In this document: in pieces, positions 14,065-60,296 of the stretch
Numbering within the stretch: the first letter of the stretch is position 1
Layout of the letters: each line of letters opens with the position of its first letter
Source of the DNA: Candidatus Nomurabacteria bacterium RIFCSPLOWO2_01_FULL_42_17
GTDB taxonomy: Bacteria > Patescibacteriota > Minisyncoccia > Phycocordibacterales > UBA9973
Reading direction: 5' to 3'
Assembly (NCBI GenBank): GCA_001785985.1
Contig: MFVE01000005.1
Coordinates: forward strand, 16,556 to 80,555
DNA: 64,000 bases
The notes under the pieces: model-generated
The model's database searches: none
Seen by the model: the letters and a program-made list of their open reading frames with translations, nothing else
Told to the model about the DNA's origin: nothing
Made by a program: the position numbers and the translations under genes

Positions 14065-15309
14065 ATGGAAAAAGAGATTAATGAAATGGATAAAAATGAT
14101 CATCGAGTGATAGGCAAAGAGTTGGACCTGTTTACTTTTTCCGAACTTGTCGGACCCGGGCTTCCGCTATGGACGCCAAGGGGCACCGTGGTGCGTGAAG
14201 AACTAGACAAATTTGTGGGAGAGCTCAGAGAAAAATATGGCTACACCCGCGTGACCATCCCCCATATTACAAAACGTGAATTATATGAGAAATCGGGACA
14301 TTGGGATAAATTTTCTGATGAACTTTTCCGCATTACATCCCGTGAAGGAAAGGAATATGCATTAAAGCCAATGAGCTGTCCCCATCACACTCAGATCTTC
14401 GACCGCAAGCCGCATTCATATAGGGAGATGCCACAAAGATACGCTGAAACAACCATGGTCTATCGCGACGAACAATCAGGCGAGCTCGGGGGCCTAACTC
14501 GCGTGCTTTCTATAACTCAAGATGATGCGCATGTTTTTTGCAGGCACAATCAAGTCAAAGAGGAATTTTTAAAGATCTGGGATATCGTTGATACATTCTA
14601 CAAAACTTTTGGATTTAGTTTAAAAGTAAGATTATCTTTTCGCGATCCGAAAGAACAAAAAAAATATTTAGGCACAAAAGAAATCTGGGATACTGCAGAA
14701 AATGAACTTCGTAGTATCGCCGAAGAACGCAAGAAAGAATTTAAGACGGATTACTTTGAAGGTCTGGGTGAAGCTGCACTATACGGACCAAAGCTAGACT
14801 TCATGGCAAAAAATTCTGCCGGACGACAGTGGCAGGTGGCGACAATACAATTGGACATGAACCTGCCAGAGAGATTTGATCTAAATTGCATCAATGAAAA
14901 GGGAGAAAAAGAAAGAATAGTAATGATTCATGCAGCCATCACCGGCTCCCTAGAAAGATGCACAGCAGTATTGATTGAGCACTTTGTCGGAGCTTTCCCT
15001 CTCTGGCTCTCACCGGTGCAAGTAAAAGTGATTCCAGTGCGTGAAAATCATAATGAATATGCAAAGGAAGTTTTTGAGATGCTCAAAGAAAATAATATCC
15101 GCGCAGAATTTGATGATAAAGATGAGAACCTCGGCACCAAAGTCCGCGACGCGAAAAATAACAAGATCCCGTACTGGATCGTCATTGGCGACAAAGAAAT
15201 AGAAGCCGGCAAAGTCACCCTCGAATCCCGCGACTCCGGCCAGCTCGGTCAAATATCAACAGAAGAACTAGCAAAAAAACTTTTAGAGGAAATAAAAAAT
15301 AAGAAGTAA
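14065..15309 (+). CDS. thrS: Threonyl-tRNA synthetase, short form (class II catalytic core + anticodon-binding domain; lacks N-terminal TGS/editing domains)
   Basis: ThrRS class II motifs (…MSCPHHTQIF…, …YRDEQSGELGGLTRVLSITQDDAHVF…) in a 414-aa protein. Confidence 0.88.
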   Translation: MEKEINEMDKNDHRVIGKELDLFTFSELVGPGLPLWTPRGTVVREELDKFVGELREKYGYTRVTIPHITKRELYEKSGHWDKFSDELFRITSREGKEYALKPMSCPHHTQIFDRKPHSYREMPQRYAETTMVYRDEQSGELGGLTRVLSITQDDAHVFCRHNQVKEEFLKIWDIVDTFYKTFGFSLKVRLSFRDPKEQKKYLGTKEIWDTAENELRSIAEERKKEFKTDYFEGLGEAALYGPKLDFMAKNSAGRQWQVATIQLDMNLPERFDLNCINEKGEKERIVMIHAAITGSLERCTAVLIEHFVGAFPLWLSPVQVKVIPVRENHNEYAKEVFEMLKENNIRAEFDDKDENLGTKVRDAKNNKIPYWIVIGDKEIEAGKVTLESRDSGQLGQISTEELAKKLLEEIKNKK

Positions 15310-15310
15310 T

Positions 15311-17392
15311 TTAAATATCAATCTCGGCGAGTTTGGCATTGGATTGGATGAAAGATTTGCGCGGAGGGACTTCGGATCCCATTAGGATGTCGAAAATTTT
15401 ATTCGCTTCTTCGGCGTCATCTATGTTTACCTTTTTTAATACGCGGTGCGCCGGATCCATCGTCGTCTCCCAGAGTTCTTCTGGATTCATTTCACCGAGA
15501 CCTTTATAACGTTGGATGTGAATTTTTGCAGACTTTTCTTTCCCGACGCTCTCCTCTTCTCCTTCCTTTGCCTCGCCAGAGTCGTCCTCGACGTCGGCGG
15601 GTTGTATATCGCTTATGTCTGCGCCTTTACCAACAATCTTTATTCTTTCTTCATCTGTATAAGCATAGGAAATTTCCTTGCCCTTTTTTATTTTATAAAG
15701 CGGTGGTTGAGCGATGTAAATATATCCAGCATCAATAATTTGTCTAAAATATCTATAAAAAAGTGTCAGCAGAAGCGTACGAATATGTGAACCATCCACA
15801 TCGGCATCGGTCGCAATGATTATCTTATGATAACGCATCTTTGCCAAATCAAATGTATCTCCGATAGAAGTGCCGAGCGCAATCACTAGAGATTTTATTT
15901 CTTTTGAAGCGAGCATCTTGTCTATACGCGCGCGTTCAACATTTAAAATTTTACCTTTCAGCGGCAAGATCGCTTGAGTGCGACGGTCTCTACCTTGCTT
16001 CGCGCTACCTCCCGCAGAATCTCCCTCGACTAAGAATAGTTCCGACTCCTCGGCATTTTTGCTCTGACAATCTGCCAATTTACCTGGAAGCGTCATTCCT
16101 TCGAGAGCGCCTTTTCGTAGAATGGAATCCTTCGCGGCTTTGGCAGCTTTGCGGGCCTTGAGAGCTAAAATAGACTTATTTATAATGACTTTTGCTTCAT
16201 CGGGATTTTCTTCTAAGAAATTATTAAAAGCCTCACCGAAAACAGTCGCCACCGCTCCTTGGGCTTCCATACTTCCTAATTTTGCTTTGGTTTGACCTTC
16301 AAATTGAATCTCGCGCAGTTTTACAGAAATAGCCACAGTTAAACCTTCCAGCACATCTTCGCCAGTAAATCCTCCTTCGGACTCTTTCATCATTTCATTT
16401 TTCTTGCAGTAAGTATTGAGAGTCCTCGTGAGCGCGGTCTTGAAACCTGTCACATGCGTGCCACCTTCGGGAGTGTTGATATTGTTAGCAAAAGGCACGA
16501 TGCGATCCACGATGTCATCCACATATTGGAGAGCTATTTCTACTCCCACGCCATCCAACTCTTTTTCAACATAAAAAATATTGCTCTGAATCGGTTTTTG
16601 AAATTTATTGTAATATTTTATGAGAGAAATTAGTCCGCCTTCAAAGTAAAAAGAGATAGATGGAAGCTCTAGGCCGAGATCTCGGAAATAAAAGACATCA
16701 CTATCATCCATCCCCTTTTTATCATGTAGTTCTTTTGCGTCTCTCGCATCGATTATTAAGATCTTTAATCCTTTAACTAAATAAGCTTGCTGGCGAATAT
16801 GGTTGACCACCGTATTCCAATCGAATTTAATATCTTTAAAGATTTCTACATCTGGTTCAAAAGTTACAATGGTTCCATGAAGTTTTGAGCTACCAACTTT
16901 TTTCACCGCGGACTTTTTCTTGCCTTGTGAATATTCTTGAACATATTTACCGCCATCTCTATGAACTTCTGCCTTACAAAAAATAGAAAGAGCATTGACC
17001 ACAGAGGCCCCAACTCCATGTAGACCGCCGGAAACTTTGTAGCCTTCTCCGCCGAACTTTCCTCCGGCGTGCAGAGTCGTCATCACCGTCTCGAGCGCGG
17101 AAACTTTTGTTTTTTTATGAGTGTCTACTGGTATACCTCGGCCATTGTCTGCGACTCGTACGCGATTACCTGGGAGAAGCACCACTTCAATATCATTACA
17201 AAAACCGCCCATCGCTTCATCGCGCGAGTTGTCAAAAATCTCCCACACCAAATGATGAAGCCCTTCTGGTCCAGTGGTACCAATATACATCCCCGGACGA
17301 CGTCTGACGGGCTCTAAACCCTCTAAAACCGATATATCTGAAGCGTCATAGTGGTGCCCATTACCCTTCTTTGTTACGTCTTCTTTTGCCAT
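15311..17392 (-). CDS. gyrB: DNA gyrase / type IIA topoisomerase subunit B
   Basis: GHKL ATPase (…LHAGGKFGG…GLHGVGASVVNALS), Toprim (…LVEGDSAGGSAKQGRDR…) and a C-terminal …KGLGEM… motif. Confidence 0.9.
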   Translation of the reverse strand: MAKEDVTKKGNGHHYDASDISVLEGLEPVRRRPGMYIGTTGPEGLHHLVWEIFDNSRDEAMGGFCNDIEVVLLPGNRVRVADNGRGIPVDTHKKTKVSALETVMTTLHAGGKFGGEGYKVSGGLHGVGASVVNALSIFCKAEVHRDGGKYVQEYSQGKKKSAVKKVGSSKLHGTIVTFEPDVEIFKDIKFDWNTVVNHIRQQAYLVKGLKILIIDARDAKELHDKKGMDDSDVFYFRDLGLELPSISFYFEGGLISLIKYYNKFQKPIQSNIFYVEKELDGVGVEIALQYVDDIVDRIVPFANNINTPEGGTHVTGFKTALTRTLNTYCKKNEMMKESEGGFTGEDVLEGLTVAISVKLREIQFEGQTKAKLGSMEAQGAVATVFGEAFNNFLEENPDEAKVIINKSILALKARKAAKAAKDSILRKGALEGMTLPGKLADCQSKNAEESELFLVEGDSAGGSAKQGRDRRTQAILPLKGKILNVERARIDKMLASKEIKSLVIALGTSIGDTFDLAKMRYHKIIIATDADVDGSHIRTLLLTLFYRYFRQIIDAGYIYIAQPPLYKIKKGKEISYAYTDEERIKIVGKGADISDIQPADVEDDSGEAKEGEEESVGKEKSAKIHIQRYKGLGEMNPEELWETTMDPAHRVLKKVNIDDAEEANKIFDILMGSEVPPRKSFIQSNAKLAEIDI

Positions 17393-17443
17393 AAATATAC
17401 CCTTATTATAGCAAAAAACACTATGAAATGCTAGACTAAACGC

Positions 17444-18574
17444 ATGTCGAATTACAATGTAGAGACCCCTGAAGAAAAAGCTTTAAAAAAAGATCTGGAA
17501 CCCAAGACTGATGCACATTCCATGCGGCTGAAACGTTATCTCAGTATGCCGGACCTTTCTCGCACTCCCGGCAGTCCATTAGAAGAAATAGTAAGAAAGG
17601 CAAAAGAAGTATCTTCTCTTAAAAATTTTGATGACATAAAAATACCAGAGATTGTGCCGACGAAGATTCTTTTTGATCTATTCAATATGCCCGAAGGCCA
17701 TCCGGCGCGCAGTCCGTCAGACACTTATTATGTTGATGAAAATAATGTTCTGCGAACGCACGATACAGTGTTTTGGTATTATTATTTGAACCTTCCAGAC
17801 ATTAAAAAAAGAATTGCGAACAAGGAAACCCTCGGAGCCATTTGTTATGGCAAGGTATACCGTAAAGATGAAATTGACGCTCGTCACATGAATGTTTTCC
17901 ATCAATTTGGGGGCTGGTTAATAACACCAGACGATAAAAAAACTATAACTCCACAAGATTTAAAAAACACTTTGACAGAAATCGCGACAAGCATTTTCGG
18001 AAAAATAAATTTTCGTTTTTATGATCACACCTTCCCTTATACTGATCCAAGCTTTGAGATGGAAGCAGAAATTAACGGAAAATGGATAGAAATGTTGGGC
18101 TCTGGAATGGTCAGAAAAACTGTATTGTCCAATCTAGGACTCGAGGGTTATCATGGATGGGCTTTCGGCTTCGGTTTGGAGCGTCTCGCTATCGCTAGTA
18201 TGCAGCTACCAGATATAAGACTACTCTGGTCAGAAGATGAGAGAGTAAAAAAACAACTTAAACTTGGACAAAAATTCTCCGAGGTTAGTAAATACCCTCC
18301 AATTATTCGCGACATTTCTTTCGTAGTTAAAAATGATTTTATACCAAATGATTATTTCGACTTTGTCAGAGAAATCGCTCCAGGTATAGTGGAAGAAGTA
18401 CAGCTGTTGGATAAATATGAAAACGCAGAAAAATTCGGCGCGGGAAAAATAAGCTATGCGTACCGCATCATTTATAGATCTTTAGAAAAAACACTTACGA
18501 GCGAAGAAATCGACTTAATACATAAAAAGCTGGAAAGTGAAACGATAAAAATCTTCGGTGGAGCTATACGCTAG
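17444..18574 (+). CDS. pheS: Phenylalanyl-tRNA synthetase alpha-type catalytic subunit with C-terminal FDX-ACB anticodon-binding domain (mitochondrial-like single-chain architecture)
   Basis: PheS core (HPARSPSDTYY…LRTHDT…GWAFGFGLERLA) is followed by about 110 aa (KYPPIIRDISFVV…KISYAYRIIYRSLEKTLTSEEI) that match the FDX-ACB fold. No pheT is adjacent. Confidence 0.85.
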   Translation: MSNYNVETPEEKALKKDLEPKTDAHSMRLKRYLSMPDLSRTPGSPLEEIVRKAKEVSSLKNFDDIKIPEIVPTKILFDLFNMPEGHPARSPSDTYYVDENNVLRTHDTVFWYYYLNLPDIKKRIANKETLGAICYGKVYRKDEIDARHMNVFHQFGGWLITPDDKKTITPQDLKNTLTEIATSIFGKINFRFYDHTFPYTDPSFEMEAEINGKWIEMLGSGMVRKTVLSNLGLEGYHGWAFGFGLERLAIASMQLPDIRLLWSEDERVKKQLKLGQKFSEVSKYPPIIRDISFVVKNDFIPNDYFDFVREIAPGIVEEVQLLDKYENAEKFGAGKISYAYRIIYRSLEKTLTSEEIDLIHKKLESETIKIFGGAIR

Positions 18575-19512
18575 ACTTGTACAGGGCTAATCTTTCGCCC
18601 GTGCCGAGAGAGAACGCAACCACCAGGACAAAGTGTATTTCCTTCTGAATCGTCAATACACTTCTCGCAAACAATGAAGTGCCTGTGACAGACTGGGTTC
18701 GCGCAGTTTACATAATTTTCAGATTCGCCTTTGCAGCTATCGCACTTCCCTACTATTTTATGTTTGGTGTCGTCAGTATAGAATCCCATAGTCACTCTGC
18801 CATCAAAAACATACAGCTTGCCTTGAAAATCTTCATTAGGATATTTTTCCATATAGCTAACTATACCTCCATCGAGTTGATACACGTCCGTAAACCCTTG
18901 TGTGATCAAAAATCCCGAAGCTTTTTCACAACGCACACCGCCAGTGCACACTGTCAGCACTGTTTTATTTTTTAAATGAGAAATTTGTTCCACCACTTTT
19001 GGCAAATCTCTAAAATTTTCAATCGGTGGCAAAATAGAATTCTCAAAATGCCCGACTTTATGTTCATAAGCATTTCGCATATCAACGATATAAAATTCCT
19101 TCGGCTCGCCGAAGCCTTGCGCGGAGGCGGCTTGGTTTTCCAAAAGCCATTCATGCAACTCCTCTGGTTTAAGATGTATGCCAGTGATTTGATTCGGGTC
19201 TATATCGCAAGTTCCTAAATGTAGTGAGACTATTTCTTTGCGCACTTTGATAGAAAGTTTTGGGAAGGCACTGCCTGTGCCAGCGCTTAATTTAAAATGA
19301 ATGTTTCTAAATCTTTCGTCTTTCTCTAATTGTTTAATATATTCTTTTATGTTTTCTTTCGTACCTTCAAAAGTAGCATTGATACCCTCAGTCGCAATAA
19401 TACATCTGCCTTTGAGGCCTAGTCGTAAGCAGATTTCTTCCTGTATCCCTCGCACATGCTCGGGATCCGCTATGCGGACGTATTTATAAAAAAGAATAAT
19501 TTGATGTTTCAT
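18571..19512 (-). CDS. trhO: Rhodanese-domain tRNA uridine(34) hydroxylase-like protein (TrhO/YceA family)
   Basis: UPF0176 N-terminal domain plus rhodanese active-site Cys (CTGGVRCEKASG) and a C-terminal Cys-rich tail. Confidence 0.75.
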   Translation of the reverse strand: MKHQIILFYKYVRIADPEHVRGIQEEICLRLGLKGRCIIATEGINATFEGTKENIKEYIKQLEKDERFRNIHFKLSAGTGSAFPKLSIKVRKEIVSLHLGTCDIDPNQITGIHLKPEELHEWLLENQAASAQGFGEPKEFYIVDMRNAYEHKVGHFENSILPPIENFRDLPKVVEQISHLKNKTVLTVCTGGVRCEKASGFLITQGFTDVYQLDGGIVSYMEKYPNEDFQGKLYVFDGRVTMGFYTDDTKHKIVGKCDSCKGESENYVNCANPVCHRHFIVCEKCIDDSEGNTLCPGGCVLSRHGRKISPVQV

Positions 19513-44676: not shown

Positions 44677-47223
44677 TTAAATTTCTGGAGCGGGTTCTGT
44701 GGATTCAGAGTCCTCAACTACATCAGCCTCTGGTGCAGATGCTTCTTCCGATTCGGGTTCAGGTTCGGGAGTTACTTCAGGAGTAGATTCAGATTCCTCC
44801 GTCTCAGACGGAGGCGTTACCTCTGCATCAGAAACTTCAGAAGTTTCATCAGCCGGCTCGTCCACCGTCTCTTCCGCTACAGGCATTTCTTCATTGCTTT
44901 CTTGCTCAGAAGCCTGCCCTGTACCAGAGCTCTGCTCTTGGTTCGGGGAATTTCCATCATTTCCTAACATAGCATCCAGCTGACTTCTAGTATAGCAAGA
45001 AGTGCCGTTTGCATCTTTCAAACAAACTTCATCTAGAGTGGCCTTTTCTGCAAAGATATTTGTAATCCCATTCCCCACATCCCCCATCCAAGCAGTGAGT
45101 TTGGCATAGACATTGTCAAAGAAAGCAGTGACGAAAGATTGGTTAGATGAGCCTTCGAGCGGAGTGATGGTGCCAGAGATGGCGTTTAGGTTTAGATTGA
45201 GTTCATCTAGTTTGGTATTCGTCGCTTGGAGACCTAGCACCATATAGCCCAGAGTGTTCACAGGGTTCACGATGGTGCCTTTGTAGTGCATGGCCCAGGG
45301 TGCTTCATCTGCCATGACACCGACATATTCTGTGATGGTGTCTCCGGTTCCCATGCCTGGTTTGTAATGGAATTTATATATTTTGGTATTGAGGATTTGA
45401 GTGAGAGCTTCATTTGGATCATCTACTGTGCTAATGACGTCCTTTAATTCACGGGAAGAGGCAGCCGATGCCCAGGAAGTGATGCCGTCTCCTCCTGCAT
45501 CGGTGAGCTGTTGACCAGCAGAGCCTACTGCAGTGGGTAAGGTTAGAGTCCAGGTGCCAGCCGCTGCGGCTGTCTGCATTGTGACTACTCCAGATGTTCC
45601 TCCTGCTAAAGACATAGTACCTGCTCTGGAACCTGCTGTACCTAATGTAAGTAATGCGACCGGAGAATTATTTCCAATTCCGATTACTGCGTCTGTGTCT
45701 ACAGTGGTGCCAGTGGCATTTACGTTTAGGCCAAAAATTGTGTTGCCGATGACGAGCTGGTTGGAAGTTGTAGCCGAGGGAGCGTCAACATCATAACCTA
45801 TGATGAGATTATTAGAACCAGAAGTAATGGCATCACCTGCTCCTAAACCAATCGCAATATTATTATCCCCCGTCGTCACTGCCGTCAGAGCGTTGTATCC
45901 AAAAGCAGAGTTGTCATCTCCGCCGTTTGAGGTGTCAAGAGCGAGAGAACCGAAAGCGGAGTTGCGGGTGCCGGTTGTTTCTGTTGTCAGAACATTATAA
46001 CCAAAAGCAGAGTTATTGTCGGCGGTGGTATTAGCGTCAAGCGCCAAAGCTCCAAAAGCTGCATTTTGAGTGCCGGTTGTGTTGACACCCAAAACGTTAT
46101 AGCCAAAAGCGCTGTTGTTGTTGGCTGTAGTATTGGCACTAAGCGCAAAAGCTCCAACAGCTGTATTTTGAGTGCCAGTGGTGTTAGCATTAAGCGTAAA
46201 TGATCCGAAGGCTGAATTATTGTTGGCGGTGGTATTAGCACTAAGCGCTAAGGATCCAAATGCGGAATTTCTAATTCCAGTAGTATTAGCGCCCAAAACA
46301 TCGGGGCCAAAAGCTGCATTTTGAGTGCCAGTGGTGTTAGCGGTTAAAACATTATACCCAAAGGCAGAGTTTAAACTACCAGTGGTGTTGGCATCAAGTG
46401 CGAAAGATCCAAAGGCCGAGTTTGAACCACCGGTGGTGTTGGATATTAAAGCGTTATACCCGATCGCCACATTATCATCTCCCGTAGTGATAGCTGTGCC
46501 TGCATCAGCACCAACCGCCGTATTTCTTAATCCACTTGCAGCTGTAAGAGAATCAAGTGCGGTGCTTCCAAGAGCAGTGTTGCCATCGCCTGCAGAAGTT
46601 TGAGTAAAACCTGTAAGTGTTGCTCCATTCGGGATGGTGAGAGTTCCAGTGCTGGAGGTGATGGTGAGGCCGTTGATACTTGTAGCTGTGGCAACTCCAA
46701 GAACTGGAGTGACCAATGTCGGAGAAGTAGCTAAAACCAAAACCGTGCCACTGCCTGTGGTCGTCATTTCTCCGAGAACGCCAGCGTTGTTGTAGAGAAC
46801 TCTGCCGGATGTACCGCTGGTAATGGAAGTGGTGCCTACTGTGAGTCCGGTACTTAACGTCGCCCAAGTGAGTACTCCACTCCCATCCGTCTGCAGGTAT
46901 TGGCTAGCAGTACCGTCATCTGTGGGAAGAGTTAGAGTATATGTGCCAGCGATAGCAGCTGGTTGAATGATGATTTCACCAGAGGTACTGCCAGTGAGAG
47001 TGAGAAAATCTGTGGTGACTTCTGCTGCCATAGACTTGGCAAGACTTTGGACGTTGCTGTCGATTGAATTTAATGTTCCATTGAGTTGAGCGTCGAAGAA
47101 AGCTCGGGTGACGAATTGAGAGGGGTTTAGATTATCTGCCCCCCCCCCTCGGTCCTGCTGGACCTTGAATTCCCTGAGGGCCCATTGGTCCCTGGGGTCC
47201 TTGAGGTCCAGCGACGTAAACAA
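44677..47223 (-). CDS. Phage-tail-fibre-like surface protein with Gly/Asn-rich NTTGxxNxAFG repeats and C-terminal intramolecular-chaperone (Peptidase_S74/endosialidase chaperone) domain plus acidic tail. Probably the 3' part of a gene fused to 47132-47443 via a G10 tract.
   Basis: More than 12 tandem repeats (…NTTGTQNAAFG…). Ser-Lys dyad motif SSRELKDVIS…DDPNEALTQILNTKIYKFHYK typical of auto-cleaving tail-spike/fibre chaperone domains. The annotated Met start is probably not real. Confidence 0.75.
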   Translation of the reverse strand: MFTSLDLKDPRDQWALREFKVQQDRGGGADNLNPSQFVTRAFFDAQLNGTLNSIDSNVQSLAKSMAAEVTTDFLTLTGSTSGEIIIQPAAIAGTYTLTLPTDDGTASQYLQTDGSGVLTWATLSTGLTVGTTSITSGTSGRVLYNNAGVLGEMTTTGSGTVLVLATSPTLVTPVLGVATATSINGLTITSSTGTLTIPNGATLTGFTQTSAGDGNTALGSTALDSLTAASGLRNTAVGADAGTAITTGDDNVAIGYNALISNTTGGSNSAFGSFALDANTTGSLNSAFGYNVLTANTTGTQNAAFGPDVLGANTTGIRNSAFGSLALSANTTANNNSAFGSFTLNANTTGTQNTAVGAFALSANTTANNNSAFGYNVLGVNTTGTQNAAFGALALDANTTADNNSAFGYNVLTTETTGTRNSAFGSLALDTSNGGDDNSAFGYNALTAVTTGDNNIAIGLGAGDAITSGSNNLIIGYDVDAPSATTSNQLVIGNTIFGLNVNATGTTVDTDAVIGIGNNSPVALLTLGTAGSRAGTMSLAGGTSGVVTMQTAAAAGTWTLTLPTAVGSAGQQLTDAGGDGITSWASAASSRELKDVISTVDDPNEALTQILNTKIYKFHYKPGMGTGDTITEYVGVMADEAPWAMHYKGTIVNPVNTLGYMVLGLQATNTKLDELNLNLNAISGTITPLEGSSNQSFVTAFFDNVYAKLTAWMGDVGNGITNIFAEKATLDEVCLKDANGTSCYTRSQLDAMLGNDGNSPNQEQSSGTGQASEQESNEEMPVAEETVDEPADETSEVSDAEVTPPSETEESESTPEVTPEPEPESEEASAPEADVVEDSESTEPAPEI

Positions 47224-47878: not shown

Positions 47879-49084
47879 TTACCCCCACAAGTCCCAAATC
47901 ATTCCAGCAATATTTCTAGGCTTGCCTTCGAGAGCATAGTAATGCAGATCGATAAAAGGCAGGGTGTTGCATTCAATGATGCCCCATTTCTGAGAGGATT
48001 CTTCTTTGGTCGGATCAGGAATGATGCAATCAAATCCCACTACAGGCAGGCTCACTATTTTCTCCGCTTTTTCTAAAATAGGAATGAAGCTCGGGTGCAG
48101 ATCATCTATCATCTCGACAGTTTTGCCCCCAAAAAGTCTGCCGATCCTGTGCGTCAAAGACAGAGATACCCCTTGCGGTAAAATATCATCAAGCTTAAAT
48201 CCCGAGCGCAAAATATGATCGCATAATTCTTTTGAAATACGTATCGGTTCGACCCGGCTGTGACGATTTTTATCTTTTTCAATAATGAGCTCTCGGATTG
48301 TTTTCTTGCCATCCCCTACTAGAGTCGGAGCATGCCCTCGATAAAATCCAGCGAGAACTCCCCCCACAAAGGTCGCTCGACAGACACTGCCCTGCAAATG
48401 CTCTTCGACGATCAAACAAGGACAGATCGCTCCGGCTATCCGCAACCCTTCTTGAAACTGCTCTAAGGTATGAATATTAGTGACAGTATGTCTGCCCCGA
48501 GAGCCCACCCGCGGTTTGACGATTATGGGTTTTTGAAGCTTGGAAAATATTTCTCTGATAGTTTTACTTTTATTTTTCGGACTGAAAAAATTAAAATCAA
48601 AATAAGCTGGGATTGGGAGATTGTGCTTCTTAAATTCTCGCTTCATGATGACTTTATCATCCCAATTTACTCGCATCTCGGGAGATTCCGGCCTGGTCGG
48701 GATACTTTCAAAATAAATATTCCGGCCGTTTAATCTAGCGCGATAAAAATCTAAGGGTTTATTTAAAAATATCACTTGTTCCATCAGGATTCCCCTCTTT
48801 TTCGCTTCTTCCCAGATGATCCTAGAACGGAAACTGGCCGAACGCTCTATATCCGGAGAAAATTTAGCGAGTTTGAAAAAAGCGAAAGTTCTAAATAAAA
48901 ATTTGGGAAAGGAATCGGCAAAATCTTTTACAAAAAATGGAACGTATTTTATAAACTTTTTCAAATAATTATCTAAGGTGACGGAAACCACGCTCTCCAA
49001 AGCAGAAAGAGCGTGGTTGATCGGAGCATCAGCGCAATACGAACAAGAGCCTTCTTTGATATGAGGTTCAGAGACTGACAACAC
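47879..49084 (-). CDS. ATP-grasp-fold protein (RimK/cyanophycin-synthetase-like ligase)
   Basis: 401 aa whose central region (…IIVKPRVGSRGRHVT…LIVEEHLQGS…) matches an ATP-grasp nucleotide-binding pattern. Confidence 0.5.
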   Translation of the reverse strand: MLSVSEPHIKEGSCSYCADAPINHALSALESVVSVTLDNYLKKFIKYVPFFVKDFADSFPKFLFRTFAFFKLAKFSPDIERSASFRSRIIWEEAKKRGILMEQVIFLNKPLDFYRARLNGRNIYFESIPTRPESPEMRVNWDDKVIMKREFKKHNLPIPAYFDFNFFSPKNKSKTIREIFSKLQKPIIVKPRVGSRGRHTVTNIHTLEQFQEGLRIAGAICPCLIVEEHLQGSVCRATFVGGVLAGFYRGHAPTLVGDGKKTIRELIIEKDKNRHSRVEPIRISKELCDHILRSGFKLDDILPQGVSLSLTHRIGRLFGGKTVEMIDDLHPSFIPILEKAEKIVSLPVVGFDCIIPDPTKEESSQKWGIIECNTLPFIDLHYYALEGKPRNIAGMIWDLWG

Positions 49085-53121: not shown

Positions 53122-53208
53122 CGGATGAGGTGAGATTCGAACTCACGGTCCTTTTTAGGGGACGGCGGTTTAGTAAACCGCTACCTTAAGCCACTCGGTC
53201 ACTCATCC
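53122..53208 (-). tRNA. Class II tRNA (Ser-like: long variable arm, discriminator G) with apparent anticodon ACU (loop UUACUAA)
   Basis: Reverse complement folds with acceptor GGAUGAG/CUCAUCC, D-stem ACC/GGU, anticodon stem GCGGU/ACCGC, variable arm GUCC…GGAC and T-arm GUGAG-UUCGAAU-CUCAC. The A34 anticodon is unusual, so the assignment is tentative. Confidence 0.55.
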
Positions 53209-53298: not shown

Positions 53299-53387
53299 GG
53301 AGCCGTGTTGGAGTGGTCTATCAAGCATCTTTGCTAAAGATGTAGGGGCTTTAAAACCCCTCGAGGGTTCGAATCCCTCCGGCTCCG
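53299..53387 (+). tRNA. tRNA-Ser (anticodon GCU)
   Basis: Acceptor GGAGCCG/CGGCUCC, anticodon stem CAUCU/AGAUG, loop UUGCUAA, long variable arm, T-arm GAGGG-UUCGAAU-CCCUC and discriminator G. Confidence 0.85.
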
Positions 53388-53392
53388 CCTTT

Positions 53393-59560: not shown

Positions 59561-59633
59561 GTCCGCCCTCTTGGACTCGAACCAAGGACAAGACGAGTAT
59601 AAGTCGTCTGCTCTACCAACTGAGCTAAGGGCG
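59561..59633 (-). tRNA. tRNA-Ile (anticodon UAU) candidate
   Basis: Reverse complement folds with acceptor CCGCCCU/AGGGCGG, D-arm GCUC-AGUUGGUA-GAGC, anticodon stem GACGA/UCGUC, loop CUUAUAC, T-arm CUUGG-UUCGAGU-CCAAG and discriminator A. Confidence 0.75.
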
Positions 59634-60296
59634 GATATTATTACTAATTCGAGAAATATACTTAAGGCTCATCACTATATATTCCCACAAATCTCTATTA
59701 TCAAACATAACACAGCAAGTCCCTTTTCCAAAGCCATTTTTATAAGTTATTGAGCTTAATTTAGTCCTTTTAATATATGACTTTCTAAACTGACTGACTG
59801 GTATTTTAAGCTCTTTTGACCAAAAACCAATACTCTTTTTGATATTCATATCAGAATATAAATGCAATTTTATTTTTAAATTTTTTCTTTTAACATTAAA
59901 AAGTTCTAACCATTTGATGAAAAATTTAAGCATCGATGGATTTGTATTTGTAAGAACCACCGAACCCTTCTGCATTTTAGTACCTTCTCCCCAATATAAA
60001 AAGAGTCCTAATAAGAATATCTCCCGCTCAGAGAAAACACCTATATCTTTAGAAACTTTTTGAAAAACTTTTTCCAAACGAGCTTCTCTTTTCGCTCGCA
60101 TTGTATTCCTAAAACGCTCAATGCGAATAGGACTGTCTGCTTGCAATTCTCTAATTCTTTTTTCTGATAATGGCATATTGTAAAGCCACCCGCTTAAGGT
60201 GCTTTTGCTTATTCCAAGCTTATCTTTTATTTGGCTATAACTCATGCCTTTTCGGCGCATGATTAGAGCCTTTTGTTTGTCTAATTTCCTTGCCAT
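59625..60296 (-). CDS. HTH-domain protein with possible LAGLIDADG-like endonuclease motif (3' end abuts/overlaps tRNA-Ile)
   Basis: N-terminal resolvase-type HTH (…GMSYSQIKDKLGISKSTLSGW…). Central …IFLLGLFLYWGEGTK… resembles a single LAGLIDADG motif. Tentative. Confidence 0.3.
   Translation of the reverse strand: MARKLDKQKALIMRRKGMSYSQIKDKLGISKSTLSGWLYNMPLSEKRIRELQADSPIRIERFRNTMRAKREARLEKVFQKVSKDIGVFSEREIFLLGLFLYWGEGTKMQKGSVVLTNTNPSMLKFFIKWLELFNVKRKNLKIKLHLYSDMNIKKSIGFWSKELKIPVSQFRKSYIKRTKLSSITYKNGFGKGTCCVMFDNRDLWEYIVMSLKYISRISNNIRP

What the first reader, a model, noticed from the sequence alone, without database searches (positions are those of the whole stretch)
17444..18574. Single-chain mitochondrial-type PheRS architecture (PheS core + FDX-ACB domain)
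Canonical bacterial PheRS is (alpha-beta)2 with the FDX-ACB anticodon-binding domain on the beta subunit (PheT). Here the 376-aa PheS carries its own C-terminal FDX-ACB (KYPPIIRDISFVV…KISYAYRIIYRSLEKTLTSEEI) and lacks the long N-terminal coiled coil. This is the domain order of monomeric mitochondrial PheRS. The gene is monocistronic here, whereas pheT normally follows pheS directly.
Basis: partly seen in the sequence, partly recalled or inferred. Interest (0 to 1): 0.6.

Follow-up and report, generated by a model that had tools for sequence, protein, structure and literature searches.

The report
Single-chain PheRS in a CPR bacterium
This tiny-genome bacterium (Candidatus Nomurabacteria) makes its phenylalanine-tRNA charging enzyme as one short protein built like the mitochondrial enzyme, not the usual two-subunit bacterial complex, which matters because textbooks treat that one-chain form as mitochondrial only.

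Summary
ORF 17444..18574 (+) encodes a 376-aa protein with a PheRS class II catalytic core (PF01409, E 4e-53) fused to a C-terminal FDX-ACB anticodon-binding domain (PF03147, 74.8 bits, cutoff 31.1). It has no coiled coil and no downstream pheT. A confident AlphaFold model (pLDDT 94) matches human mitochondrial PheRS over both domains (3CMQ, TM 0.78). Class II motifs and the two Phe-specificity residues (E. coli T251 and A294) are conserved.

The gene is from Candidatus Nomurabacteria. Orthologs occur in at least 357 GTDB species representatives. They are more conserved than GyrB or ThrRS in the same genome pairs.

No pheT and no second pheS was found in the window, in about 10 kb beyond its right end, or in 1.37 Mb of related loci. 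Whole-genome absence could not be tested.

The protein is not a strict FARS2 ortholog. It fails the TIGR00469, TIGR00468 and SrmL cutoffs. It falls in a bacterial-type clade (83% NJ bootstrap) separate from the eukaryotic and viral forms.

Best reading: an editing-free, probably monomeric, housekeeping PheRS, probably the only one in this genome. I found no published description of this in bacteria.

The parts
17444..18574 (+). Complete CDS of the single-chain PheRS (376 aa plus stop)
   Evidence: ORF list. Identical to NCBI 'hypothetical protein A2917_02105', Candidatus Nomurabacteria bacterium RIFCSPLOWO2_01_FULL_42_17. AlphaFold pLDDT 94, pTM 0.89.
17393..17443 (.). 51-nt divergent intergenic region between the gyrB start (CAT at 17390-17392) and the PheRS ATG. 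It presumably holds both promoters.
   Evidence: Sequence read directly. The consensus scan found no sigma-70-like match inside it. gyrB is the divergent neighbour in 60 of 80 orthologous loci.
17444..17572 (+). Short N-terminal region (aa 1-43) that replaces the PheS coiled coil. It contains the clade-specific motif RLKRYLSMPDLSRTPGSP (aa 28-45).
   Evidence: Alignment with E. coli PheS, P0121 and P0125. Modelled with pLDDT 93-97 as short helices.
17573..18256 (+). Class II PheRS catalytic core (aa 44-271)
   Evidence: PF01409, E 4e-53. Matches bacterial PheS structures at E about 1e-28 and mtPheRS at 1e-57.
17699..17731 (+). Motif-1 region HPARSPSDTYY (aa 86-96)
   Evidence: H86 and R89 are invariant, and D93 and Y96 nearly invariant, in the 34-sequence family alignment. 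Aligns to E. coli HPARADHDTFW.
17768..17797 (+). 10-residue insertion VFWYYYLNLP (aa 109-118), specific to the bacterial-type single-chain clade
   Evidence: Present in the window protein, P0121 and P0125 (and partly in the phage-borne P0137). Absent from E. coli PheS and the eukaryotic forms.
17849..17914 (+). Motif 2, GKVYRKDEIDARHMNVFHQFGG (aa 136-157)
   Evidence: R140, D142, D145, H148, F152 and Q154 are invariant. Aligns to E. coli [21 protein letters not shown].
18032..18052 (+). FPYTDPS segment holding T200, the equivalent of the E. coli PheS T251 specificity position
   Evidence: Column mapping. P198 is invariant.
18155..18190 (+). Motif 3, GWAFGFGLERLA (aa 238-249), holding A240, the equivalent of the E. 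coli PheS A294 Phe/Tyr specificity position
   Evidence: Column mapping. G242 and R247 are invariant.
18209..18286 (+). Junction. PDIRLLWSEDERVKKQLK (aa 256-273) matches the natural C-terminus of E. coli PheS (TDLRSFFENDLRFLKQFK-stop). The chain then continues through the linker LKLGQKFSEV (aa 272-281) into the FDX-ACB domain.
   Evidence: Alignment. D257, I258, R259 and Q271 are invariant.
18287..18571 (+). FDX-ACB (PheT B8-type) anticodon-binding domain (aa 282-376)
   Evidence: PF03147, 74.8 bits, full-length profile match. Matches TIGR00472 pheT_bact positions 691-794 and E. coli PheT residues 695-794. S337 and R376 are invariant.

Best explanation
The gene encodes a functional single-chain phenylalanyl-tRNA synthetase. 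It is probably monomeric and probably the housekeeping, and only, PheRS of this Nomurabacteria genome.

Inferred mechanism, by homology with human and yeast mitochondrial PheRS: the class II core (motifs 1-3) activates phenylalanine with ATP to Phe-AMP and transfers it to A76 of tRNA-Phe. The C-terminal FDX-ACB domain reads the GAA anticodon after swinging from a closed to an open position. In canonical bacteria that domain is B8 of the beta subunit.

The protein contains no B3/B4 editing domain, so it cannot clear Tyr-tRNA-Phe in cis. Accuracy would rest on the synthetic site alone.

The architecture looks like a pheS-pheT operon that lost everything between the pheS stop codon and the B8-coding end of pheT.

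Shown here: domain content, fold, intact catalytic and specificity residues, strong purifying selection, wide distribution in Paceibacteria-type CPR, and no pheT nearby. Inferred: enzymatic activity, monomeric state, lack of editing, and absence of pheS/pheT from the rest of the genome.
For: Both domains score above the curated Pfam cutoffs. The best solved relatives are human mtPheRS at E 1e-57, against about 1e-28 for bacterial PheS. The AlphaFold model (pLDDT 94, pTM 0.89) superposes on the 3CMQ closed state across both domains (TMq 0.78, rmsd 3.3 A, 386 columns).

Motifs 1-3 are conserved, and the residues equivalent to E. coli T251 and A294 are T200 and A240. PheS-like homology ends at the natural PheS C-terminus, and FDX-ACB follows.

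There are more than 6,000 homologs with the same two domains. At least 357 GTDB species representatives carry one, and the best 80 are 66-88% identical. Median identity to the window protein is 71%, against 63% for GyrB, 49% for ThrRS and 70% for LigA in the same genome pairs.

No PheT B1, B3/4, B5 or B6-7 domain and no second PheS was found in the window, in 1.37 Mb of 82 related loci, or in about 10 kb beyond the right end, where infC-rpmI-rplT is not followed by pheST. In 23 related loci the only PheT remnant is a stand-alone B2 gene directly upstream.

Precedents from the literature: mtPheRS is fully active as a monomer (PMC3275996), human mtPheRS charges bacterial tRNA-Phe (PMC4394434), and monomer-type PheRS replaced the heterotetramer in diatom plastids that lost syfB (PMC4494062).

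The neighbouring ThrRS also lacks its editing domain, so this lineage appears to tolerate editing-free synthetases.
Against: The rest of the genome could not be searched. The source contig is 326 kb and only about 74 kb was seen. Some CPR lineages do have PheRS beta (Mukai 2017, PMC5370408).

The protein fails every curated equivalog cutoff: TIGR00469 216.5 against 258.35, TIGR00468 162.6 against 237.45, SrmL 216.8 against 300. NCBI calls it 'hypothetical protein'.

No tRNA-Phe gene was available to check identity elements. There are no biochemical data on any bacterial member. Monomeric state cannot be read from sequence.
Confidence: 0.75

Rival explanations
1. It is an auxiliary PheRS paralog, for example a stress-, antibiotic- or analog-resistant spare. 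It would coexist with a canonical pheS-pheT operon located elsewhere in the genome.
For: Whole-genome absence of pheT is untested. CPR bacteria with PheRS beta exist. A relative occurs in an Oligoflexia MAG (P0125, MBX7144632.1), a lineage with ordinary-sized genomes that would be expected to have canonical PheST. NCBIfam recognises a related 'mystery ligase' family.
Against: The gene is single-copy and near-universal across the sampled Paceibacteria. It is more conserved than GyrB, ThrRS and LigA, which is unusual for a dispensable spare. Redundancy is unlikely in genomes under 1 Mb. No canonical pheS or pheT was found in 1.37 Mb of related DNA or after rplT. In Doudnabacteria the only protein annotated as 'beta chain' is a 140-aa B2 fragment encoded next to this gene.
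Confidence: 0.15
2. It is an SrmL-like 'PheS-related mystery ligase' that uses the PheRS scaffold for a reaction other than charging tRNA-Phe for translation.
For: The top NCBIfam hit by E-value is NF051887 SrmL (216.8 bits), matching across both domains (profile positions 32-342 of 349).
Against: The score is far below the SrmL cutoff of 300 and is tied with pheS_mito (216.5). None of 10 diverse relatives passed the SrmL cutoff, while 7 passed TIGR00469. The Phe-specificity residues and all motifs are canonical. The neighbourhood is housekeeping genes (gyrB, thrS, a trhO-like gene, a UvrD-like helicase), not a biosynthetic cluster.
Confidence: 0.05
3. It is a recent horizontal acquisition from a eukaryote or virus, or eukaryotic contamination of the bin, and not a lineage-typical bacterial gene.
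For: The best solved-structure hits are eukaryotic mtPheRS. Related genes occur on huge-phage and giant-virus contigs.
Against: Identity to the eukaryotic and viral forms is only about 35%. The Parcubacterial cluster is monophyletic (100/100) and lies inside a bacterial-type clade (83/100). Synteny with gyrB is conserved in 60 of 80 loci from many candidate phyla. Window GC is about 0.38-0.42 around the gene, with no local anomaly.
Confidence: 0.03

Closest known systems
Mitochondrial (organellar) monomeric PheRS: human FARS2, yeast MSF1, TIGR00469, PDB 3CMQ/3TUP
   Same: Same two-domain chain: the PheS catalytic module plus a B8/FDX-ACB domain. No coiled coil, no beta subunit, no editing domain. 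Same fold over both domains (TM 0.78). Same motifs and the same junction motif PDIRLxWSxDxRxxxQ.
   Different: This one is bacterial, with no transit peptide. Identity is only about 31-35%. It fails the TIGR00469 cutoff. It sits in a separate clade (83% NJ bootstrap). It has its own N-terminal RLKRYL..PDLSR motif and a 10-residue insertion after motif 1.
Canonical bacterial PheRS (alpha-beta)2, PheS (TIGR00468) plus PheT (TIGR00472)
   Same: Homologous catalytic core (about 32% identity to E. coli PheS). The C-terminal domain is homologous to PheT domain B8.
   Different: There is no alpha coiled coil and no PheT domains B1-B7, which include the B3/B4 editing site. B8 is fused in cis. There is no adjacent pheT. 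It fails the TIGR00468 cutoff (162.6 against 237.45).
NCBIfam NF051887 SrmL, 'PheS-related mystery ligase'
   Same: The profile covers both domains, so the architecture is apparently the same. It is the best NCBIfam E-value.
   Different: The score of 216.8 is far below the cutoff of 300. I found no literature on SrmL. The gene context here is housekeeping.
Single-chain PheRS genes of huge phages and giant viruses (LR745206.1; 42 IMG/VR contigs, several of them GVMAG)
   Same: Same two domains in a compact 340-375 aa chain.
   Different: 31-42% identity. Most group with the eukaryotic forms and pass TIGR00469. Only the LR745206.1 copy falls in the bacterial-type clade.
Monomer-type PheRS retargeted to diatom and cryptophyte plastids after loss of syfB (PMC4494062)
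   Same: A precedent for a monomeric PheRS replacing the alpha-beta heterotetramer in a bacterial-type translation system.
   Different: Those enzymes are eukaryotic nuclear genes derived from the mitochondrial copy. Here the replacement, if complete, happened in free bacterial genomes.

Membership tests
Single-chain (mitochondrial-type) PheRS | PheS catalytic module and FDX-ACB/B8 anticodon-binding domain in one polypeptide, in that order | tested here: met
   PF01409 at residues 44-271 and PF03147 at 282-376, both above cutoff.
Single-chain (mitochondrial-type) PheRS | No alpha N-terminal coiled coil and no B1-B7 domains, including the B3/B4 editing domain | tested here: met
   No other Pfam domain. 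Only 43 residues precede the core. The TIGR00472 match is limited to profile positions 691-794.
Single-chain (mitochondrial-type) PheRS | Three-dimensional fold matching solved mtPheRS across both domains | tested here: met
   3CMQ at TMq 0.78, TMt 0.73, rmsd 3.3 A; 8P8X at TMq 0.80. Model pLDDT 94.
Single-chain (mitochondrial-type) PheRS | Class II motifs 1-3 and the Phe-specificity residues intact | tested here: met
   Invariant H86, R89, R140, D142, H148, Q154, G242 and R247. T200 and A240 correspond to E. coli T251 and A294.
Single-chain (mitochondrial-type) PheRS | Active as a monomer and charges tRNA-Phe | not testable with these tools
   Needs SEC-MALS and aminoacylation assays.
TIGR00469 pheS_mito equivalog (FARS2/MSF1 orthologs) | Score at or above the curated cutoff of 258.35 bits | tested here: not met
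   216.5 bits. The 56%-identical relative P0121 just passes at 264.3, and phage-borne relatives score 260-308.
TIGR00469 pheS_mito equivalog (FARS2/MSF1 orthologs) | Branches within the eukaryotic organellar clade | tested here: not met
   Falls in a bacterial-type clade (83/100 NJ bootstraps) outside the eukaryotic/viral group. The method is rough: NJ with five outgroups.
Canonical bacterial PheS (TIGR00468) | Score at or above the cutoff of 237.45, an N-terminal coiled coil, and a partner pheT (usually adjacent) | tested here: not met
   162.6 bits. No coiled coil. No pheT in the window, in about 10 kb of flank, or in 82 related loci.
SrmL PheS-related mystery ligase (NF051887) | Score at or above the curated cutoff of 300 bits | tested here: not met
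   216.8 bits.
SrmL PheS-related mystery ligase (NF051887) | Coexistence with canonical PheS/PheT in the same genome (implied by the name 'mystery ligase'; this is my inference) | not testable with these tools
   No whole-genome access.

The most novel reading that the evidence does not exclude
Paceibacteria-type CPR bacteria, and the code-25 Gracilibacteria/Absconditabacteria-type lineages, have discarded the PheRS beta subunit entirely. They run translation on an editing-free single-chain PheRS. This bacterial/phage single-chain lineage is old enough to be the source from which the eukaryotic mitochondrial enzyme was recruited, so the mitochondrial enzyme would not have been invented inside eukaryotes. 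That would overturn the 'three forms, monomer is mitochondrial only' picture. It would also parallel the phage origin of other mitochondrial information-processing enzymes.
Probability: 0.3. Interest if true: 0.8.

Novelty: new member of a known kind. Interest (0 to 1): 0.6.

Why it matters
Reviews from 2010 to 2023 describe bacterial PheRS as an (alpha-beta)2 heterotetramer and the monomer as a mitochondrial peculiarity (PMC3275996, PMC4394434, PMC7373986, PMC9976931). If this enzyme is the sole PheRS of a large bacterial radiation, four things follow.

1. The smallest known class II synthetase design is a normal bacterial solution.
2. These organisms lack Tyr-tRNA-Phe proofreading. Here ThrRS editing is missing too, which bears on mistranslation in reduced genomes.
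3. The origin of mitochondrial PheRS becomes a testable phylogenetic question with bacterial and phage candidates.
4. Marker-gene sets that expect PheS (TIGR00468) and PheT (TIGR00472) would systematically under-score these genomes. NCBI currently labels the protein 'hypothetical'.

Tried and rejected
- **Literature.** Ten searches found no report of a bacterial or CPR monomeric PheRS, and nothing on SrmL. PMC13622651 only uses pheS for counter-selection. Meheust 2019 only remarks on alpha/beta homology.
- **Whole-genome pheT test.** This was not possible. No tool returns more than +/-10 kb around a gene. A left-end extension failed because the called start codon differs.
- **Seeding a CPR PheT search.** A search starting from the B2-like ORF returned only 105-162 aa B2 mini-proteins. 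The profile of divergent clade members returned only more Paceibacterota.
- **tRNA-Phe identity elements.** None of the window or the 52 loci scanned for tRNAs contains a tRNA-Phe gene.
- **Names for metagenomic relatives.** Mostly none were available.
- **Promoter and terminator scan.** It gave no interpretable signal in the 51-nt upstream region.
- **Weak Pfam hit.** The RNA_pol_Rpb8 hit (E 0.019, below cutoff) was dismissed as noise.
- **Tree-building tools.** No ML software was available, so the phylogeny is NJ with Kimura distances only.

Full report
**1. Observation**

The ORF at 17444..18574 (+) exists as described: ATG start, 376 codons plus stop. Pfam finds two domains, both well above their curated cutoffs:
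- PF01409 (class II PheRS core), residues 44-271, E 4e-53.
- PF03147 (FDX-ACB), residues 282-376, covering the whole profile, 74.8 bits against a cutoff of 31.1.

Only 43 residues precede the core, so the roughly 85-residue coiled coil of canonical PheS is missing.

The gene stands alone:
- gyrB starts 51 nt upstream on the other strand.
- A convergent UPF0176/rhodanese gene overlaps the stop codon.

**2. Source and family**

The protein is identical to 'hypothetical protein A2917_02105' of Candidatus Nomurabacteria bacterium RIFCSPLOWO2_01_FULL_42_17, a Parcubacteria-group CPR bacterium.
- More than 6,000 homologs share the same two domains at about 376 aa.
- A scan of one genome per GTDB species found 357 relatives.
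- The best 80 are 66-88% identical. They come from Nomura-, Doudna-, Giovannoni-, Yanofsky-, Lipton-, Colwell-, Wolfe- and Sungiibacteria and from unclassified Paceibacterota or Patescibacteria. A few MAGs carry other labels.
- At 50% clustering, the exhaustive search found only 204 representatives at E of 1e-30 or better. The nearest representative is 56% identical.

**3. Is it a working PheRS?**

The best solved relatives are human mitochondrial PheRS (E about 1e-57), against about 1e-28 for bacterial PheS alpha chains. PheT chains match only through their last 100 residues.

An AlphaFold model built on a 34-sequence alignment is very confident: pLDDT 94, pTM 0.89, no segment below 70. Foldseek results:

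| Target | TMq | Comment |
|---|---|---|
| 3CMQ, 5MGH, 8P8X (human mtPheRS, closed form) | 0.78-0.80 | rmsd 3.3-3.8 A over 386-404 columns, both domains |
| 3TUP (human mtPheRS, tRNA-bound open form) | 0.59 | the model is in the closed conformation |
| Bacterial PheS alpha chains | about 0.54 | catalytic half only |

Class II motifs are present with invariant residues:
- Motif 1: HPARSPSDTYY.
- Motif 2: GKVYRKDEIDARHMNVFHQFGG.
- Motif 3: GWAFGFGLERLA.

The two experimentally defined specificity positions of E. coli PheS, T251 and A294, correspond to T200 and A240.

PheS-like homology runs exactly to the natural PheS C-terminus: E. coli ...DLRFLKQFK-stop, here ...DERVKKQLK. The chain then continues through a 10-residue linker into FDX-ACB. 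This is what an in-frame deletion from the pheS stop codon through pheT domains B1-B7 would produce. That origin is my inference.

**4. Is it the housekeeping enzyme?**

Across the 80 orthologous loci, I compared identity to the window protein with that of neighbouring genes in the same genome pairs:

| Gene | Median identity |
|---|---|
| Single-chain PheRS | 71% |
| LigA | 70% |
| TruB | 65% |
| GyrB | 63% |
| ThrRS | 49% |

The divergent gyrB-PheRS arrangement is kept in 60 of 80 loci. This is the behaviour of an essential gene.

I searched for a canonical enzyme with E. coli PheS and PheT as phmmer queries against all six-frame ORFs of the window plus 82 related loci, 1.37 Mb in total.
- PheS found only the single-chain gene, once per locus.
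- PheT found only the FDX-ACB tail of that gene.
- In 23 loci, PheT also found a small ORF matching PheT residues about 40-147.
- No B3/4, B5 or B6-7 domain was found anywhere.
- The ten largest other ORFs of the window are unrelated: rpoB, recG, ftsH, T2SS/T4P genes, a Pif1 helicase and others.

About 10 kb beyond the window's right end there is an smpB gene and an infC-rpmI-rplT cluster. In E. coli that cluster runs straight into pheS-pheT (known operon order thrS-infC-rpmI-rplT-pheS-pheT). Here it is followed by an unrelated gene on the other strand.

I could not search the rest of the genome. The source contig is 326 kb, and no tool returns more than +/-10 kb around a gene. Mukai et al. 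2017 show that some CPR lineages do have PheRS beta. Sole-enzyme status is therefore inferred. I put it at roughly 75-80%.

**5. Membership**

The protein fails every curated equivalog cutoff:

| NCBIfam model | Score (bits) | Cutoff (bits) |
|---|---|---|
| SrmL, NF051887 | 216.8 | 300 |
| pheS_mito, TIGR00469 | 216.5 | 258.35 |
| pheS, TIGR00468 | 162.6 | 237.45 |

This explains NCBI's 'hypothetical protein' label. Of ten diverse relatives, seven pass TIGR00469 and none passes SrmL.

I built an NJ tree with 100 bootstraps from 101 sequences and 345 columns, with five canonical PheS sequences as outgroup.
- The single-chain family is monophyletic (100).
- The Parcubacterial cluster is monophyletic (100), and P0121 is its sister (100).
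- A 'bacterial-type' clade has 83% support. It contains the Parcubacteria, P0121, the Oligoflexia protein P0125, P0127 with P0132, P0236, and the copy from the 635-kb huge phage LR745206.1.
- The remaining eukaryotic, viral and compact sequences group weakly (49%).

Identity of the window protein to the eukaryotic forms is about 35%, and to canonical PheS about 32%.

The bacterial-type clade shares an N-terminal motif (RLKRYL..PDLSRTPGSP) and a 10-residue insertion after motif 1.

The protein therefore has the mitochondrial architecture and fold, but it is not a FARS2 ortholog and not a recent eukaryotic import.

**6. Mechanism**

The mechanism is inferred from the solved mitochondrial enzyme as described in PMC3275996, PMC4394434 and PMC9976931.
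- A single chain activates Phe and transfers it to tRNA-Phe.
- The FDX-ACB domain must swing away from its closed position to reach G34 of the anticodon.
- The recognition set is small: G1-C72, A73, C74 and the anticodon.
- With no B3/B4 domain there is no cis-editing of Tyr-tRNA-Phe.

Human mtPheRS charges bacterial tRNA-Phe efficiently (PMC4394434). Monomer-type PheRS has replaced the heterotetramer in diatom plastids that lost syfB (PMC4494062). A replacement in bacteria is therefore mechanistically plausible.

**7. Novelty**

Ten full-text searches found no description of a bacterial monomeric PheRS or of SrmL. Reviews up to 2023 present the monomer as mitochondrial only. Databases have seen these proteins: JGI names them 'alpha chain' and UniRef 'phenylalanine-tRNA ligase'.

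I rate the finding as a new member of a known kind, with a more novel reading still open. In that reading, a whole bacterial radiation lacks the beta subunit, and the bacterial/phage single-chain lineages are candidates for the source of the mitochondrial enzyme.

**8. Side observations**

- In Doudnabacteria-type loci, a 105-162 aa stand-alone B2/tRNA_bind protein is encoded directly upstream of the single-chain gene. JGI annotates it as 'beta chain'.
- Relatives occur on 42 IMG/VR viral contigs, including huge phages and giant-virus MAGs.
- A 456-aa relative has 13 in-frame UGA codons that fall on Gly columns, indicating a code-25 CPR lineage.
- The window's ThrRS lacks the TGS and editing domains.

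Noticed in passing
L023, L028, L030, L031, L033, L035, L037, L038, L040, L042, L044-L046, L048, L050, L055, L060, L065, L068, L072, L073, L076, L077 (e.g. L076:9561-10001, +): In 23 Doudnabacteria-type loci, a small gene sits immediately upstream of the single-chain PheRS on the same strand. The stop-to-stop ORFs are 124-205 aa. It matches PheT residues about 40-147, the B2 OB-fold domain (PF01588 tRNA_bind, E 1e-16 to 1e-19). It has 1,125 homologs, the best 120 are all 105-162 aa, and JGI names them 'PheRS beta chain'. It looks like a mini-beta partner or a remnant of pheT. The window has no copy.
   Followed up: yes
window 14065-15309 (+): The ThrRS is only 414 aa. It has the catalytic core plus the HGTP anticodon domain, with no N-terminal TGS or editing (tRNA_SAD) domain. 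So a second synthetase in this window lacks its proofreading module.
   Followed up: partly
L086 (160-kb contig), L084/L085, L136 (LR745206.1, 635 kb), L090-L131 (IMG/VR): Compact single-chain PheRS genes (340-375 aa) occur on huge-phage-like contigs. The contexts include dCMP deaminase, dNMP kinase, ThyX, IF1 and PcfJ. They also occur on giant-virus MAGs. 42 IMG/VR contigs carry one, many of them 200-536 kb and one 1.47 Mb. Most pass the TIGR00469 cutoff and group with the eukaryotic forms.
   Followed up: partly
L087:9463-10833 (+) (protein P0132): A 456-aa single-chain PheRS relative has 13 in-frame UGA codons. They align mostly with Gly columns, including an invariant Gly. This indicates genetic code 25, a Gracilibacteria/Absconditabacteria-type CPR lineage, even though the gene was called with table 4.
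   Followed up: yes
window 53122-53208 (-) and 53299-53389 (+): A type-II tRNA with anticodon ACU (loop TT-ACT-AA, long variable arm) is called tRNA-Ser by ARAGORN and confirmed as a tRNA by Rfam (52.7 bits). A34 in a Ser tRNA is unusual. The neighbouring ARAGORN 'tRNA-Ser(GCU)' on the other strand does not reach Rfam's gathering score.
   Followed up: partly
window 59561-59634 (-): A tRNA-Ile with a UAU anticodon (Rfam 67.7 bits). This suggests AUA is decoded without the usual lysidine (TilS) system. I did not look for tilS.
   Followed up: no
L137:7831-8874 (about 1-3 kb beyond the window's right end): An infC-rpmI-rplT cluster lies next to smpB. It is not followed by pheS-pheT as it is in E. 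coli. The next gene is a LOG-family (PF18306) gene on the opposite strand.
   Followed up: yes
window 44677-47223 (-) and 47879-49084 (-): Two large ORFs (848 aa and 401 aa) have no Pfam match at E of 1e-5 or better.
   Followed up: no
window 18571-19512 (-): The convergent neighbour is a UPF0176_N plus Rhodanese plus Rhodanese_C protein (TrhO/YceA-type tRNA-modification architecture). Its 3' end overlaps the PheRS stop codon by 4 nt.
   Followed up: partly
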